A stretch of DNA of 45,560 nucleotides from Escherichia phage ev243, in sequence record NC_049955.1; one strand, 5' to 3'. Made by a program: the position numbers. Of the stretch, positions 17,801 through 23,800 are shown piece by piece. How positions within the stretch are numbered: the first letter of the stretch is position 1; each line of letters opens with the position of its first letter.

Positions 17801-20800
17801 AGCGCGCGTTATCTTGGTACGGCACTGTACTGGATAGCCGCCAGTATCAATATCAAACCGGGCCATGATTATTATTTTTACGTTCGCAGTGTGAACACCG
17901 TTGGCAAATCGGCATTCGTGGAGGCTGTCGGTCAGCCGAGTGATGATGCATCAGGCTATCTGGATTTTTTCAAAGGCGAGATAGGGAAAACCCATCTGGC
18001 TCAGGAGCTGTGGACGCAGATTGATAACGGTCAGCTTGCGCCTGACCTGACTGAAATCAGGACGTCCATAACGGATGTCAGCAATGAAATAACACAGACC
18101 GTCAATAAGAAACTGGAAGACCAGAGTGCAGCGATCCAGCAGATACAGAAGGTTCAGGTTGATACAAATAATAACCTGAACAGCATGTGGGCAGTGAAGC
18201 TGCAGCAGATGCAGGACGGACGCCTTTATATCGCGGGTATCGGTGCCGGTATTGAGAACACCCCTGACGGCATGCAGAGTCAGGTGCTGCTGGCAGCAGA
18301 CAGGATTGCGATGATTAATCCTGCGAATGGCAACACAAAGCCGATGTTTGTTGGTCAGGGCGATCAGATATTCATGAATGAAGTGTTCCTGAAACGCCTG
18401 ACGGCCCCCACCATTACCAGCGGCGGTAATCCTCCGGCATTTTCCCTGACATCAGACGGGAGACTGACGGCGAAAAATGCGGATATCAGTGGCAGTGTGA
18501 ATGCGAACTCAGGAACGCTCAACAATGTCACGATTAACCAGAACTGTACGATTAAGGGCATGCTGGAGGCGACCCAGGTCAGAGGAGATTTCGTTAAAGC
18601 TGTATCAAAAGCCTTCCCGAAAAAAGTCGGTACGTGGGGTAACACGGAAACACCAAACGGTACGGTTACAGTCACCATCAGCGATGATCATAACTTTGAC
18701 CGCCAGATTATTATTCCGCCCATTATTTTTAACGGTATAGCGTATGACGATCCGGGGAGCGGAAATAACCCAGGAGGCACGCGATACACGGGTTATGGTT
18801 TTGAAGTTCGCAAAAACGGCGTATTAATCGCATCCAGAGAAACTAAAGGGGCCATTCCCGGTAGTTACAGTGCAGTTATTGATATGCCGAGTGGCAGGGG
18901 AAGCGTCACTCTGGAGTTTAAGATTTTCCAGAAAGGCAATCAGGGGGCAGGCAATATCACCGACTGTACGGTGATTGTGACCAAAAAAGCCGCTTCCGGC
19001 ATCAGTATTCGTTGAAATATTTATAACCCCAATAAAGGGCGTCAGGAATGACGCCTTTTTTATTGCAGAAAAGCGAGAGGTAATTATGCGTAAAGTTTGT
19101 GCAGCAATTTTGTCCGCAGCCATTTGTCTGGCCGTATCCGGTGCGCCTGCATGGGCGTCTGAACATCAGTCCACGCTGAGCGCGGGGTATCTTCATGCCT
19201 CGACGAACGTCCCCGGCAGTGATGATCTGAACGGGATTAACGTGAAATACCGTTATGAGTTTACGGACACACTGGGGCTGGTGACGTCATTCAGCTATGC
19301 AGGAGACAAGAATCGCCAGCTGACCCGTTACAGCGATACCCGCTGGCATGAAGATTCCGTTCGTAACCGCTGGTTCAGCGTAATGGCGGGGCCGTCTGTG
19401 CGCGTGAATGAATGGTTCAGCGCGTATGCGATGGCGGGTGTAGCTTACAGCCGTGTGTCGACTTTCTCCGGGGATTATCTTCGCGTAACTGACAACAAGG
19501 GGAAAAAGCACGATGTGCTGACCGGAAGTGATGACGGTCGCCACAGCAACACGTCTCTGGCGTGGGGGGCTGGCGTGCAGTTTAACCCGACCGAATCCGT
19601 GGCCATTGATATTGCTTATGAAGGCTCCGGCAGTGGCGACTGGCGCACTGACGGTTTCATCGTGGGTGTCGGTTATAAATTCTGATTAGCCAGGTAACAC
19701 AGTGTTATGACAGCCCGCCGGTTCAGGCGGGCTTTTTTGTGGGGTGAATATGGCAGTAAAGATTTCAGGTGTACTGAAAGACGGCACAGGAAAACCGGTA
19801 CAGAACTGCACAATCCAGCTGAAAGCAAAACGTAACAGCACCACGGTGGTGGTGAACACGCTGGCCTCAGAAAATCCGGATGAAGCCGGGCGTTACAGCA
19901 TGGACGTTGAGTACGGGCAGTACAGCGTTATTCTGTTGGTGGAGGGATTCCCGCCGTCACATGCCGGGACCATTACCGTGTATGAAGATTCTCAACCCGG
20001 TACGCTGAATGATTTTCTCGGTGCCATGACGGAGGATGATGCCCGTCCGGAGGCATTGCGCCGTTTTGAGCTGATGGTGAATGAAGTGGCACGTCATGCC
20101 GGAGCGTCATCACAGAGTGCAGCGGCGGCAAAGAAATCCGAAACGGCAGCAGCCTCATCGAAGAATGCGGCGAAAACCTCAGAAACGAATGCAGCTAACA
20201 GCGCACAGGCGGCAGCGGCCTCGCAGACTGCATCGGCAAACTCCGCGACAGCAGCCAAAAAATCAGAAACCAGCGCGAAAAATAGCGAGACAGCCACAAA
20301 GGCCAGCGAAAAAAACGCAAAATCCAGCCAGACGGCAGCGAAAACCAGTGAGACGAATGCCAAAGACAGTGAAGCCAACGCAAAGGTGAGCGAAACAGCG
20401 GCGGCGAACTCGGCGAAAGCATCGGCAGCAAGCCAGACGGCAGCAAAAGCAAGTGAAGATGCTGCCAGAGAATACGCAAACCAGACAGCAGAGCCGTACA
20501 GATATGTTTTACAGCCGCTGCCGGATGTGTGGATACCCTTTAATGATTCGCTGGATATGATTACGGGCTATTCTCCGGGTTATAAAAAAGTGAAGATTGG
20601 TGATAATGTGGTTCAGGTTGCCAGTGATAAACAGGTTAATTTCAGTCGCGCATCAACGGCAACATATATCAACAAATCTGGCGAACTGAAAACGGCGGAA
20701 ATTAATGAGCCGCGATTTGAGTGTGATGGCCTGCTTATTGAGGGACAAAGAACGAACTTCTTCCAGAACAGTACAGACCCTTCGAAGTGGAATAAGTCAA

Positions 20801-23800
20801 CTTCACTGGACGTTACAGAAACAGGCACAGATAGTTTCGGGTTTAATTATGGTCGGTTTGTCGTACAGGATTCGATTGTTGGTACAAGTAAAGCGCATAC
20901 CATTATCGGACTGTATTCGAGTACCGGAGGGGTTGATACTTCAGGGGACGAAAAGCATGTAACTATATCCTGTCGGGTAAAAAGTGAAGTTGATAATATC
21001 GCCGTTCGTATTTTATTTGAACATTATGATGGGGAGGTAAGGACATCAATAGGAGCAGCAAACCTGAACCTTACCACCCGCATAATTAGCAAGACAGGTC
21101 AGACAAGCCGTGTTACAGCAAGGTCTGTTAAGGATGATGCAACTGGCTGGATATTTTTTGAGGCTACATTAAAAGCAGATACAACAGAAAATACGGTTGG
21201 TGGTTTTGTCCAGTATTCTCCGGATACAGGGCAGATGGTTACATCAGGGGATTATCTCGATGTAACCACTCCACAGATTGAGGCTGGTACAGGCGCATCA
21301 TCTTTTATTGTTACGGGGACGGCACCGGCAACGCGGGCAAGCGATATGGTGACAGTCCCAATCAAGAATAACCTTTATAATCTTCCTTTTACGGTTCTTT
21401 GTGAGGTACATAAGAACTGGTATAAAACGCCAAATGCAGCACCGCGTGTTTTTGACACATACCGGCATCAGGCAGATGCGGGGATCGTAATGGGGTTTGG
21501 TTCATCAGGTGGGTACGACGGTTTTCCGTATTGTGATATAGGTGGTTCAGACCGACGAATAAATGAAAATGCCGGGCTGGAAAAAATGCTTATTGGTATG
21601 CGGGTAAAGTCCGAACGGTCCACATGTGTAGTCAGTAACGGTAAGTTAAGCAGCGAAACTAAAACCAAATGGGAATATATCCGGAGTACAGCAACCATTC
21701 GCATTGGTGGACAAACTACAGCAGGATTACGCCATTTATTTGGGCATGTGAGGAATTTTCGTCTCTGGCATAAAGAGCTAACAGATGCGCAGCTTGGGGA
21801 GGTTGTGGAGTGAGAGATTTCACGTTGCGTTTCAGTGATAAAGCAGATTTCAGGGCATTTCTCAGGAAACTTAACTGGGAAGAGGACGAAGAGCTGCAGA
21901 ATGCCGTTCTGGTTGATGAGATTGGTTTTACGTTCAGTGAGTCAGGTGTTTCTGCTGACGGGGAGCCTGAATACACGCGAGACGAAGGGTACTTTGTTAA
22001 TATTCGTCTTCTTGACGATGGCTTTGATGAATCCGTGTTCCGTGAGTGGGTGGTTACACCAGAGCGCCCGCTAAGGGAGTGGTTTTAAGGGGAGCAGATG
22101 GATATCACGTCGATACTTCATGCGCTTTGTGCCGTGGCGGTGCAGGTACTGGCTGGTCTTTTTACCGGAAACTGGGCTTACGGGGCGATAGCCGGTTGTA
22201 CGTTCTTCATTGCGCGTGAACACACCCAGGCAGAATATCGCTGGATTGAAATGTTCGGGCATGGCAAGCGGATTAACATGCCGTGGTGGGGCGGTTTTGA
22301 TCCACGTGCATGGGATGTGGCAAGCCTGATGGATTTTGCTGTGCCGGTGGTGGCGTGTCTGCTGGTCTGGCTGTTGGTTAATCGTGGGTGAAAAAGGTGA
22401 GCAGTATATGCAACGAAGGAGGAAACATCATTGCTGGCGGCATGGAAGGCATGCAGGGTGTTGCTGAACCGTGTTGATACATCAACTGCACCTGATATTG
22501 AGTGGCCTACGAACCCTGTCAGGGAGTAATCATTGGGATTATGCCGCAGCACGTCTTAAGCAAGAACGTGCTGCGGTTGGATGCTATTTTTTCCCTGAAG
22601 CGGAAAACATTACTACAGTACCTTGAACCTTGGTTTTAACATTCTCGAAATGCTCTGAGAGTATATGTGTTAAGCCTTCTTCGGAATCTTTTGTGTTTGA
22701 AAAGATGCCTTTCTGATTGTAAATGCGCATCAGTTTTTGACCGAAGCTATTGTGCACAACTCCATCGCCAAGAATTGTGGCTCCGTATAGAGTTCCATCG
22801 TCAGTTAAGGCCTGCGCCGCATTGCGTATTACACAGCTTTTTGTAGATATATTTCCAGGCAGGCAGTGAAGAAGGTAAAACATGGAAATGGAATCAAATT
22901 GACCATGTAACGCCGCGGGATAAGGTTCAAAAACATCATGGCTAATTTTATGTTTAATTTTTGATTCCCCTGCCCTTGTAGATGCCGCGTTCAGGCTAGC
23001 TTCGTTCAAATCCATTAAAGATATCAGACTACTCTCAGGTACGTGAGTAAGGTAAAACCCAGTTCCAACACCAATATCCAGATGGTTGTTACCTAAATGT
23101 TCCAGAAAGTGTGGAAGAAGGTGTTCCTTTGTAGGACATCCCCATGCAAGCCGATTTGATACTCCCAAAACCCACCAGTCATAAAGCTTTAGGGTAAGTG
23201 GTGTGTAAATTTTAGCCCCATCATCTGTGTTTTTTTTCATTAATTTCACCATGTTATAGTTTTATTTGTGAATTAAATCAATTATGGCGATGAATTACAA
23301 GGGGTTAAATGCTGCCGCAGCATAGCGATATTGAAATAGCCTGGTATGCTTCGATACAGCAGGAGCCGAATGGCTGGAAGACCGTCACCACACAGTTCTA
23401 CATCCAGGAATTCAGTGAGTATATTGCGCCACTGCAGGATGCTGTAGATCTGGAAATCGCAACGGAGGAAGAAAGATCGTTGCTGGAGGCATGGAATAAA
23501 TATCGGGTATTGTTGAATCGAGTTGATACATCAGTAGCTCTGGGTATGAAGCTGTTTGTAACTCATGTTACAGTAACAGTCATTACTATCTCGAAGGTGC
23601 AAAATGTATATTGATTTGATATTTTATAAATTTACTTCGAATCTGGCACGTCAACTTTTGATTAAAGTAATATCAGTTTTCGGCGAAAAAAGGACCGTGT
23701 ACATGAGACGATTTCATACAATAATAACAAAAATATGAATATGCTCCCAATGCAATATATGTTTTGCATTGGGAGCAAATAGCGGAATATTTTGAAATTA

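What the first reader, a model, noticed from the sequence alone, without database searches (positions are those of the whole stretch)
20500..21813. Side tail fibre with a swapped C-terminal receptor-binding domain (lectin/LamG-like) and no downstream tfa
Seen: the Stf N-terminus matches lambda Stf, then an A/S/T/K-rich repeat shaft, then about 450 aa that do not resemble the lambda Stf distal region and end in FGHVRNFRLWHKELTDAQLGEVVE, a pattern typical of the last strand of ConA-like/LamG jelly-roll domains. No Tfa-like ORF follows. Inference: a domain-shuffled fibre with a carbohydrate-binding tip that may fold without the usual Tfa chaperone or use the adjacent small ORFs.
Basis: partly seen in the sequence, partly recalled or inferred. 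Interest (0 to 1): 0.65.

Follow-up and report, generated by a model that had tools for sequence, protein, structure and literature searches.

The report
Lambda side fibre with lectin-like tip
This lambda-like E. coli phage has swapped the usual needle-shaped tip of its side tail fibre, and the helper gene that folds it, for two lectin-like domains plus a small conserved partner gene; the fibre type is common and already catalogued, so it is real but fairly ordinary.

Summary
The gene at 19750-21813 (+) encodes a 687-aa side tail fibre (Stf). Its parts are a lambda-type N-terminus (91% identical over aa 1-116), a heptad-repeat A/S/T/K-rich shaft (aa 117-246), and a 441-aa C-terminal module with no similarity to the lambda Stf distal part.

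The module is predicted with high confidence (pLDDT 92) as all-beta. I read it as two ConA-like sandwiches: a 'GTA head-spike-fibre' domain (NCBIfam NF048003, above cut-off) and a LamG-type end domain.

'No tfa' needs correcting. Two 3' relics of tfa lie downstream, at 22410-22529 and 23387-23539. Both are pseudogenes. The first marks the right-hand scar of a cassette swap that brought in the lectin module with orf92 (21810-22088).

orf92 is a translationally coupled, uncharacterised 92-aa gene. It sits directly after such fibres in 190 of 209 phage records, across six phage groups. In most relatives a third gene, a distal fibre, follows it; that gene is missing here.

The same block occurs in 235 of 5,426 complete E. 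coli genomes, and the same gene layout occurs in classic phage 21. A 60%-identical module in phage IrisVonRoten was described in 2025 as a 'galectin-like' possible receptor-binding domain.

Verdict: a real new member of a known kind. Glycan binding and the role of orf92 are inferred, not shown.

The parts
19712..19733 (+). Terminator-like hairpin between lom and stf
   Evidence: Consensus scan found 8 pairs (7 G-C) followed by a T run. Phage 21 has an annotated terminator at the same relative place. Function was not tested.
19750..21813 (+). stf: side tail fibre gene, 687 aa (stop at 21811-21813)
   Evidence: ORF list. Matches PHROG 1419 'tail protein' at E = 0. 100%-identical C-terminal regions occur in many E. 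coli genomes.
19750..20097 (+). Stf N-terminal tail-attachment (collar) domain, aa 1-116
   Evidence: 91.4% identical to lambda orf401 aa 1-116. Pfam PF08400 phage_tail_N matches aa 1-131 at E 1.4e-69. The collar role comes from the Ur-lambda structure (PMC12617516).
20098..20487 (+). Shaft, aa 117-246: A/S/T/K-rich heptad repeats, presumably a trimeric coiled coil
   Evidence: 95% A/S/T/K/E/N/Q, with autocorrelation peaks at lags 7, 14 and 21. The coiled coil is inferred by analogy with Ur-lambda Stf aa 102-393.
20488..20733 (+). Conserved neck and first strands of the C-terminal module, aa 247-328 (PLPDVWIPFNDSLDM...EPRFE.DGLLIEG)
   Evidence: This is the most conserved stretch across 45 homologues. 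It is beta-rich in the AF2 model. The left edge of the imported cassette lies at or before it.
20734..21339 (+). D1, aa 329-530: GTA head-spike-fibre domain, ConA-like beta-sandwich with a variable body
21340..21810 (+). D2, aa 531-687: LamG/ConA-like end domain finishing in FGHVRNFRLWHKELTDAQLGEVVE
   Evidence: Pfam Laminin_G_3 passes threshold in homologues P0161 (E 1.9e-11) and P0135. The window's own sequence gives E 0.039. Foldseek's best matches span about 375-390 alignment columns of the 445-aa model, i.e. more than one domain. Every full-length homologue ends within a few residues of this C-terminus.
21810..22088 (+). orf92: 92-aa acidic protein. Its GTG start overlaps the stf stop (GTGA), with GGGGAGG ending 7 nt upstream. 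Candidate fibre partner (chaperone, cap or adaptor).
22098..22391 (+). orf97: 97-aa predicted membrane protein, a conserved flanking gene at the end of the fibre operon
   Evidence: PHROG 1443. The phage 21 record annotates the homologue as a membrane protein with 2 TMDs. It stays about 93% identical where the fibre and orf92 diverge. dN/dS is 0.15-0.18. Homologues end the receptor-binding operon in JEP4 and phiHAP-1.
22410..22529 (+). tfa relic 1: last 39 codons plus the stop of a lambda-type tail fibre assembly gene; the right-hand scar of the cassette swap
   Evidence: tblastn with lambda Tfa aligns aa 156 to the stop at 85% identity. In-frame stops lie just upstream, so there is no ORF. 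PGAP marks it as a pseudogene in HM670.
22584..23252 (-). Class I SAM-dependent methyltransferase inserted between the two tfa relics (not part of the fibre)
   Evidence: Pfam Methyltransf_12, _23, _25 and _11 match. 100% identical to the gene in phage 2G7b.
23309..23614 (+). ORF containing tfa relic 2; the Tfa-like part is 23387-23539
   Evidence: Pfam Caudo_TAP matches at E 9e-18, but only profile positions 75-121 of 131. 74.5% identical to lambda Tfa aa 132-182. PGAP marks it as a pseudogene 'missing N-terminus'.

Best explanation
This is the side tail fibre of a lambda-like E. coli phage. Its lambda-type distal part (the gp37-like needle) and most of the adjacent tfa chaperone gene have been replaced by an imported cassette.

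Shown:
- The protein keeps the lambda N-terminal collar domain and a heptad-repeat shaft.
- It then carries a conserved neck and a high-confidence all-beta module, which I read as two ConA-like sandwiches: D1, a GTA head-spike-fibre domain, and D2, a LamG-type domain.
- The cassette also brings orf92, which is translationally coupled to stf.
- A 39-codon 3' stump of tfa follows orf97, the conserved flanking gene next to the cassette.

Inferred:
- The shaft forms a trimer that hangs from the tail collar, as in Ur-lambda.
- Each chain ends in an autonomously folding D1-D2 lectin-like knob. The knob binds a surface glycan (O-antigen, capsule or LPS core) reversibly and speeds or permits adsorption. 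The J protein, whose own C-terminus also differs from lambda, does the irreversible step.
- Such beta-sandwiches fold as single-chain units rather than interdigitated trimeric needles, so a Tfa-type chaperone is not needed.
- orf92 is a dedicated partner of the D2 end, either an assembly factor or a small cap/adaptor.

In most relatives a third gene, a distal fibre with a conserved TVIPxDITxLK N-terminus, follows orf92 and makes the fibre branched. Here, and in phage 21, that gene is absent, so D1-D2 is the only candidate receptor-binding part.
For: Anatomy and swap: lambda orf401 aa 1-116 is 91% identical, and neither orf314 nor intact Tfa has a match. The tfa stump at 22410-22529 has stops upstream. 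PGAP marks both tfa pieces as pseudogenes in a near-identical genome.

Sequence families: NF048003 GTA_spike_fiber scores 68.6 bits against a cut-off of 36. Laminin_G_3 passes threshold in homologues.

Glycan link: the RcGTA head spike fibre binds the capsule polysaccharide (PMC7296036; PMC10218006).

Receptor-binding signature: across 45 homologues the framework is conserved and the bodies of D1 and D2 are variable. The module sits behind many different N-termini.

Published parallel: IrisVonRoten Gp22 is 60% identical over the module. It is described as carrying a protruding 'galectin-like' domain that may act as an extra receptor-binding domain (PMC11990801).

orf92: it overlaps the stf stop (GTGA) and has an SD sequence. 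It is adjacent to D2 in 190 of 209 phage records. It is under purifying selection even between two phages that both lack the third gene.

Viability of the type: it occurs in the plaque-forming phages 21 and PhiR49_2 and in 235 of 5,426 complete genomes.
Against: - No binding data exist for this protein or for any lambdoid member.
- The window's own sequence misses the Pfam LamG threshold.
- The AF2 model is a monomer, so oligomeric state and the D1-D2 arrangement on a trimeric shaft are unknown. I could not inspect coordinates or per-residue alignments, so the two-sandwich split rests on the family boundaries and on match lengths.
- In 12 of 16 loci examined the fibre is followed by a distal fibre gene. 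The module's main role could therefore be as a joint rather than a receptor binder.
- Its sequence co-variation does not discriminate chaperone from adaptor: Spearman 0.70-0.75 with D2 against 0.46 with the distal-fibre anchor, and the pairs are not independent.
- Intact tfa genes on other prophages of the host could act in trans.
Confidence: 0.68

Rival explanations
1. The C-terminal module with orf92 is mainly a joint ('knee') for attaching a separate distal fibre, not a receptor binder. This phage has lost the distal fibre gene, so its side fibre is a headless proximal stump with little or no receptor function.
For: In 12 of 16 related loci a third gene starts about 10 nt after orf92. It has a conserved N-terminus (TVIPxDITxLK) and is annotated as a tail fibre. 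The BASEL paper models the distal T-shaped Gp24 attached to the proximal Gp22. Phages 2G7b and PhiR49_1 show the same lambdoid layout with the extra fibre gene between orf92 and orf97. The window has no such motif in any frame. Side fibres are dispensable in lambda.
Against: A pure docking platform should be conserved, yet the bodies of D1 and D2 are the most variable parts. The two-gene version persists with intact ORFs in diverged lineages: window versus phage 21 are 54% identical in the module and 63% in orf92, and orf92 shows purifying selection. It also occurs in 235 complete genomes. D1 is homologous to a capsule-binding fibre. The distal-fibre anchor sequence also occurs inside the single-chain LtfA of DT57C, and DT57C LtfA is described with a different, S74-type C-terminus, so docking may not need the module.
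Confidence: 0.2
2. The ConA-like domains are enzymatic: a glycanase of the GH16/glucanase type that cuts O-antigen or capsule, making this a tailspike-like depolymerase rather than a lectin.
Confidence: 0.07
3. The region is decaying prophage cargo: the fibre gene is intact by chance but no longer used, and orf92 and orf97 are unrelated inserted genes.
For: The neighbourhood is littered with pseudogenes and inserted genes: two tfa relics, a methyltransferase on the opposite strand, a hydrolase and an omptin.
Against: The window carries a full set of lambdoid functions. The same layout is in plaque-forming phages. orf92 and orf97 show dN/dS well below 1. orf92 is coupled to fibres across six phage groups, including strictly lytic ones.
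Confidence: 0.05

Closest known systems
Side tail fibre of Escherichia phage 21 (OL657228, CPT_21_22) and of PhiR49_2 (PV340570)
   Same: Same gene order, stf then a 92-aa ORF then a 97-aa membrane ORF, with no distal fibre gene. Fibre sizes are 686 and 687 aa. PhiR49_2 is 98% identical over the fibre. Phage 21 is 61% identical overall and 54% over the C-terminal module.
   Different: Phage 21 has sitABCD cargo downstream instead of tfa relic - methyltransferase - tfa relic; no tfa stump was detected there by tblastn. Neither fibre has been functionally studied, as far as the searched literature shows.
Proximal lateral tail fibre Gp22 of T5-like phage IrisVonRoten (Bas32), with its 'galectin-like' C-terminal domain (Humolli et al. 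2025, PMC11990801)
   Same: The C-terminal 436 aa are 60% identical to the window's module (D2 71%), and an orf92 homologue follows directly. The domain is published as protruding from the fibre end and as a possible additional receptor-binding domain.
   Different: It has a T5-type N-terminus and needs LtfC. It carries a distal T-shaped fibre, Gp24, encoded right after the small ORF. IrisVonRoten plates on E. coli with the O16 O-antigen, but the paper does not establish which receptor-binding domain is responsible. The window has no distal fibre.
RcGTA head spike fibre Rcc01080 (PDB 6TB9 chain F3; NCBIfam NF048003)
   Same: D1 and its leading strands are homologous by sequence (E 4e-4 over 248 aa; NF048003 at 68.6 bits). 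The GTA fibre binds capsular polysaccharide for reversible attachment.
   Different: It is a single chain anchored on a capsid penton by an N-terminal (I/L)-G repeat. It has no shaft and no match to D2, and it sits on the head, not the tail. Only residues 2-10 are resolved experimentally.
Lambda / Ur-lambda Stf with Tfa
   Same: The N-terminal collar domain is 91% identical, the shaft is a coiled coil, and the gene sits after J and lom.
   Different: Lambda's distal part is a gp37-like needle with HxH repeats that binds OmpC and is paired with the Tfa assembly gene. Here it is replaced by lectin-like sandwiches, there is no HxH, and tfa is reduced to two stumps.
Pseudomonas phage Pa193 gp46 and the matching E217 baseplate protein (PDB 9B45, 8ENV)
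   Different: Identity is only 15-18%. They are baseplate wedge proteins of a myophage that hold the fibre, not the end of a fibre. The resemblance is in fold only.

Membership tests
Lambda-type side tail fibre (Stf; Pfam PF08400 fibres) | N-terminal phage_tail_N collar domain | tested here: met
   PF08400 at E 1.4e-69; 91% identical to lambda over aa 1-116.
Lambda-type side tail fibre (Stf; Pfam PF08400 fibres) | Gene placed after J and lom in the late operon | tested here: met
   J at 15518-19015, lom at 19086-19685, stf at 19750-21813.
Lambda-type side tail fibre (Stf; Pfam PF08400 fibres) | gp37-like distal needle (HxH repeats; homology to lambda orf314) | tested here: not met
   orf314 has no match below E = 1 in the window; no HxH motif.
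Lambda-type side tail fibre (Stf; Pfam PF08400 fibres) | Intact downstream tfa (Caudo_TAP) chaperone gene | tested here: not met
   Only two 3' fragments remain, and both are pseudogenes in the PGAP annotation.
GTA head spike fibre domain (NCBIfam NF048003) | Score above the curated cut-off over the full-length profile | tested here: met
   68.6 bits against 36; profile positions 1-181 of 182 on aa 329-530.
GTA head spike fibre domain (NCBIfam NF048003) | Binds capsular or extracellular polysaccharide | not testable with these tools
   Known only for the RcGTA protein itself.
ConA-like lectin / LamG (Pfam PF13385 Laminin_G_3) | Sequence score above the gathering threshold | tested here: not met
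   The window's last 177 aa score 14.5 bits against 27.6. Homologues P0161 (44.8 bits) and P0135 (30.2 bits) do pass, and they align with the whole module.
ConA-like lectin / LamG (Pfam PF13385 Laminin_G_3) | Jelly-roll beta-sandwich fold | tested here: met
ConA-like lectin / LamG (Pfam PF13385 Laminin_G_3) | Defined sugar- or Ca2+-binding site | not tested
   No site analysis was possible without coordinates.
PHROG 1419 'tail protein' | Profile match over the C-terminal module | tested here: met
   E = 0 for the whole protein; E 1.1e-217 for aa 243-687 on profile positions 348-793 of 793.
Branched lateral fibre system (proximal fibre + small ORF + distal fibre, as in IrisVonRoten, AKFV33, JenP1, 2G7b) | Proximal fibre ending in the neck-D1-D2 module | tested here: met
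   36-64% identity over the module to these fibres.
Branched lateral fibre system (proximal fibre + small ORF + distal fibre, as in IrisVonRoten, AKFV33, JenP1, 2G7b) | orf92-like gene overlapping or abutting the fibre stop | tested here: met
   GTGA overlap; the two are adjacent in 190 of 209 records.
Branched lateral fibre system (proximal fibre + small ORF + distal fibre, as in IrisVonRoten, AKFV33, JenP1, 2G7b) | Distal fibre gene with the TVIPxDITxLK N-terminus after the small ORF | tested here: not met
   orf97 follows instead; there is no IP.DI..LK motif in any of the six frames of the window.
Tail fibre assembly chaperones (Caudo_TAP / Tfa) as the identity of orf92 | Sequence or fold similarity to Tfa | tested here: not met
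GH16-type glycanase | Catalytic ExDxxE motif | tested here: not met
   The motif is absent.

The most novel reading that the evidence does not exclude
orf92-like proteins (PHROG 1361; 321 clusters, all named 'hypothetical') could be an unrecognised, dedicated accessory component of lectin-tipped lateral fibres, acting as an assembly factor or a small structural adaptor at the D2 end. In that reading they take the place of Tfa. Together with the conserved TVIPxDITxLK anchor of optional distal fibres, they would define a plug-and-play fibre cassette shared by lambdoid, T1-like, T5-like, Dhillonvirus, Nonagvirus and rV5-like phages. The window would be its minimal, unbranched form.
Probability: 0.4. 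Interest if true: 0.55.

Novelty: new member of a known kind. Interest (0 to 1): 0.3.

Why it matters
Side and lateral fibres decide which O-antigen or capsule types a phage can get past, and lambda Stf chimeras are now used to retarget delivery particles.

Knowing that one common E. coli prophage fibre type ends in self-folding lectin-like domains, and travels with a 92-aa partner gene rather than Tfa, is practical. It tells engineers which genes to move together and where the natural junctions are: the shaft and neck on the left, and inside tfa on the right.

Biologically it is one more clear case of cassette exchange between temperate and lytic phages. It does not change any concept. The only open lead of wider interest is the untested function of the orf92 family.

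Tried and rejected
- Pfam on the whole protein gave nothing for the C-terminal 440 aa. Only the isolated last 177 aa gave a sub-threshold LamG hit.
- TRF found no DNA tandem repeat in the shaft. The repeat is at heptad level in the protein only.
- The first homologue search returned only near-identical E. coli proteins, which were useless for an alignment. I used the 50%-identity representative library instead.
- I looked for fibre-orf92 fusions among 150 representatives and found none.
I rebuilt it from database hits.
- I used identity-matrix correlations to decide whether orf92 tracks D2 or the distal-fibre anchor. 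The result is ambiguous and confounded by linkage. Some clusters (2G7b, PhiR49_1, PhiR46_1) keep orf92 at 95-98% while D1 and D2 drop to 42-59%, yet the overall rank correlation is higher with D2.
- Three literature candidates led nowhere. Gifsy-1 Stf is Ur-lambda-like throughout. DT57C LtfA ends in an S74 intramolecular chaperone. The Nature 2024 lambda-Stf chimera paper says nothing on this type.
- I searched for the rV5 homologue hoping to link it to virion proteomics. rV5 itself was not among the rows, so I dropped this.
- D1 and D2 show no detectable sequence similarity to each other.
- A glycanase reading was rejected for lack of motifs.

Full report
**What is there.** The window is a complete lambda-like phage genome. 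It has tail genes, J, lom and stf, then a cargo region, then int, exo/RecT, rexA, cI, O, P, a porin gene and a lysozyme gene. The finding covers the 3' two-thirds of stf. The gene most likely starts at the ATG at 19750, as in lambda, and ends at 21813, giving 687 aa.

**Check of the observation.** Lambda orf401 (the Stf N-terminal part) aligns to 19750-20097 at 91.4% identity over aa 1-116. Pfam phage_tail_N matches aa 1-131 at E 1.4e-69.

Residues 117-246 are 95% A/S/T/K/E/N/Q. Their residue autocorrelation peaks sharply at lags 7, 14 and 21, so they are heptad repeats. Tandem Repeats Finder sees no DNA-level repeat. In Ur-lambda the equivalent stretch is a trimeric coiled coil hanging from a dodecameric collar made of the N-termini (PMC12617516).

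The last 441 aa have no similarity to lambda orf314, the distal Stf part (no hit below E = 1). They also lack the HxH motifs of gp37-like needles. So the sequence description is right.

The statement that no Tfa-like ORF follows is not quite right. tblastn with lambda Tfa finds two pieces.
- 22410-22529 encodes the last 39 codons plus the stop, 85% identical to lambda Tfa. In-frame stops lie just upstream, so it is not an ORF.
- 23387-23539 corresponds to Tfa aa 132-182 at 74.5% identity. It lies inside ORF 23309-23614, which hits Pfam Caudo_TAP at E 9e-18 but only over profile positions 75-121 of 131.

In a 98%-identical chromosome (E. coli HM670), NCBI's annotation pipeline (PGAP) annotates both as tail fibre assembly pseudogenes 'missing N-terminus'. 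There is therefore no intact tfa in the window, but there are two remnants.

**What the C-terminal module is.** PHROGs already holds it: phrog_1419 'tail protein', E 1.1e-217 for aa 243-687. NCBIfam places a complete 'GTA_spike_fiber' domain (NF048003) on aa 329-530, at 68.6 bits against a cut-off of 36. The only solved-structure relative by sequence is the head spike fibre Rcc01080 of the Rhodobacter capsulatus gene transfer agent (E 4e-4).

A search of 1.84 billion representative proteins gave 2,922 relatives at E <= 1e-3. In 44 of the best 150 the match spans essentially the whole 440-aa module, and in those it ends within a few residues of the protein's C-terminus. The module sits behind many different N-termini: phage_tail_N, Phage_fiber_2, Tail_spike_N. 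Two of these homologues pass Pfam Laminin_G_3 in their last ~150 aa (P0161, E 1.9e-11).

Foldseek's best matches are the Pa193 and E217 baseplate proteins and tandem laminin LG domains. They span about 375-390 alignment columns of the 445-aa model, more than a single domain.

I read the module as a conserved neck, then D1 (the GTA-spike-fibre sandwich), then D2 (the LamG-type sandwich). I could not inspect coordinates, so this split rests on the family boundaries and match lengths. Across the 45 homologues the neck, the D1-D2 linker and the final strands are conserved. The bodies of D1 (module residues 106-255) and D2 (301-405) are highly variable. That is the usual pattern for receptor-binding domains under exchange or diversifying selection.

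**The cassette and its scar.** The stf stop overlaps the GTG start of a 92-aa ORF (GTGA at 21810-21813), with GGGGAGG ending 7 nt upstream. Nine bases after its stop, a 97-aa membrane-protein ORF begins. Eighteen bases after that ORF comes the tfa stump. The lambda-like sequence stops in the shaft on the left and resumes inside tfa on the right. The simplest reading is that a cassette replaced 'Stf distal part + 5' tfa'.

orf97 does not behave as part of the variable cassette. It stays 92-94% identical in phage 21 and 2G7b, where the fibre module is 54-64% identical and orf92 is 42-63% identical. In 2G7b, PhiR49_1 and PhiR46_1 it lies beyond an extra fibre gene. So the variable cassette is neck-D1-D2 plus orf92, with or without a distal fibre, and orf97 is a conserved flank.

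**orf92.** tblastn finds it in 185 phage records. A concatenated D2+orf92 query finds both parts adjacent, covering at least 80% of the query, in 190 of 209 records. These records span lambdoid phages, Drexlerviridae, T5-like Markadamsvirinae, Dhillonvirus, Nonagvirus and Vequintavirus.

**The missing third gene.** In 12 of the 16 loci compared, a gene starts about 10 nt after orf92. It has the conserved N-terminus TVIPxDITxLK and a variable remainder of 98-579 aa, usually annotated as a tail fibre. In the T5-like phage IrisVonRoten this is the T-shaped distal fibre Gp24. Humolli et al. model it attached to the proximal fibre Gp22, and they describe Gp22's C-terminus as a protruding 'galectin-like' domain that could be an additional receptor-binding domain (PMC11990801). 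Gp22's last 436 aa are 60% identical to the window's module.

The window, PhiR49_2 and phage 21 lack this gene, and the motif is absent from all six frames of the window. The window therefore carries the minimal, unbranched form.

I tried to decide whether orf92 serves D2 or the distal fibre. The evidence is mixed. Some lineages keep orf92 and the anchor nearly identical while D1 and D2 diverge. Overall, though, rank correlation is higher with the D2 C-terminus (0.75) than with the anchor (0.46), and linkage confounds both. Its persistence under selection without a distal fibre argues that at least part of its job concerns the proximal fibre itself.

**Most likely mechanism.**
- Shown: the domain architecture, the fold class, the swap scar, and the orf92 linkage.
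- Inferred: the fibre trimerises through its coiled coil and hangs from the collar as in Ur-lambda. Each chain ends in a D1-D2 knob that binds a surface polysaccharide reversibly. This follows from its homology to the RcGTA head fibre, which binds capsule, and from the general role of siphovirus lateral fibres in O-antigen recognition.
- Inferred: because single-chain beta-sandwiches fold on their own, the Tfa chaperone that gp37-like needles need became dispensable and decayed. orf92 assists or caps the D2 end.

I give this reading 0.68. The main rival, at 0.2, is that the module is chiefly a joint for a distal fibre that this phage has lost. A glycanase reading has no catalytic motif to support it and ranks lower in the structure comparison.

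**Novelty.** The C-terminal 445 aa used as the query are 100% identical in many E. coli proteins, ST131 among them, which are annotated only as 'prophage tail fiber N-terminal domain-containing protein'. The whole stf - orf92 - orf97 - tfa relic - methyltransferase - tfa relic block is present in 235 of 5,426 complete genomes. The same gene layout (stf, the 92-aa ORF, the 97-aa ORF) is in classic phage 21 and in recent ECOR-derived phages. The module has a PHROG, an NCBIfam domain and a published structural remark.

It is therefore a new member of a known kind. The one lead with some reach is the uncharacterised orf92 family.

Noticed in passing
window 22098-22391 (+); L019 2989-3288; L020 3001-3306: Homologues of orf97, the 97-aa predicted membrane protein, sit as the last gene of the receptor-binding operon in unrelated temperate phages. 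In P22-like JEP4 the homologue comes right after the tailspike (76% identical). In the Halomonas myophage phiHAP-1 it comes after the tail fibre assembly gene (39% identical). The position suggests a lysogenic-conversion or superinfection-exclusion gene. dN/dS is 0.15-0.18.
   Followed up: partly
window 17900-19015 (+), the 3' end of J: The central fibre J is 97-100% identical to lambda J over aa 1-800. The last ~330 aa are only 31-80% identical by 100-aa block, and GC drops from 0.59 to 0.50 at 18-19 kb. This phage has therefore also changed its terminal receptor-binding domain and probably does not use LamB.
   Followed up: partly
window 22410-23614: The layout is tfa stump, then a SAM-dependent methyltransferase on the opposite strand, then a second tfa stump. 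It is the same in phages 2G7b and PhiR49_1 (where the methyltransferase is annotated YbcY-like). From memory, not tested, it looks like the tfaD-ybcY-tfaX arrangement of the K-12 cryptic prophage DLP12.
   Followed up: partly
window 23798-25282 (-), 25469-26422 (-), 41639-42721 (-): There are cargo genes with possible host-fitness roles: a 494-aa secreted-looking alpha/beta hydrolase (Abhydrolase_1 plus a TAP-like domain), an omptin-family outer-membrane protease between stf and int, and a porin gene (Porin_1) just before the lysis genes.
   Followed up: no
L011 4258-4437 versus DT57C (NC_027356 73703-73897): In three-gene cassettes the distal fibres begin with about 60 aa (TNIPxDITKLK...NLSDLADRAAAWLNVRPIG). 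This stretch matches an internal segment of the single long LtfA of DT57C at 70% identity. The same fibre seems to exist in split and unsplit forms, with the lectin module and orf92 sitting at the split point.
   Followed up: partly
window 19712-19733 (+): A G+C-rich hairpin followed by a T run lies between lom and stf. A terminator is annotated at the same place in the phage 21 record. stf expression presumably depends on Q-mediated read-through.
   Followed up: no
phage collection records MG065635-MG065692 ('Campylobacter phage C13, A116, C2 ...'): Several records labelled as Campylobacter jejuni phages carry fibre and orf92 sequences up to 100% identical to those of E. coli rV5-like and T5-like phages. 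The labels, or the samples, look wrong.
   Followed up: no
L004 (Logan ERR15285234 contig) 2024-5996: A distant homologue of the module (31% identical, and passing Laminin_G_3) is followed by two Gly_rich_2 genes, not by an orf92-like gene. The orf92 linkage may therefore be limited to enterobacterial phages.
   Followed up: no
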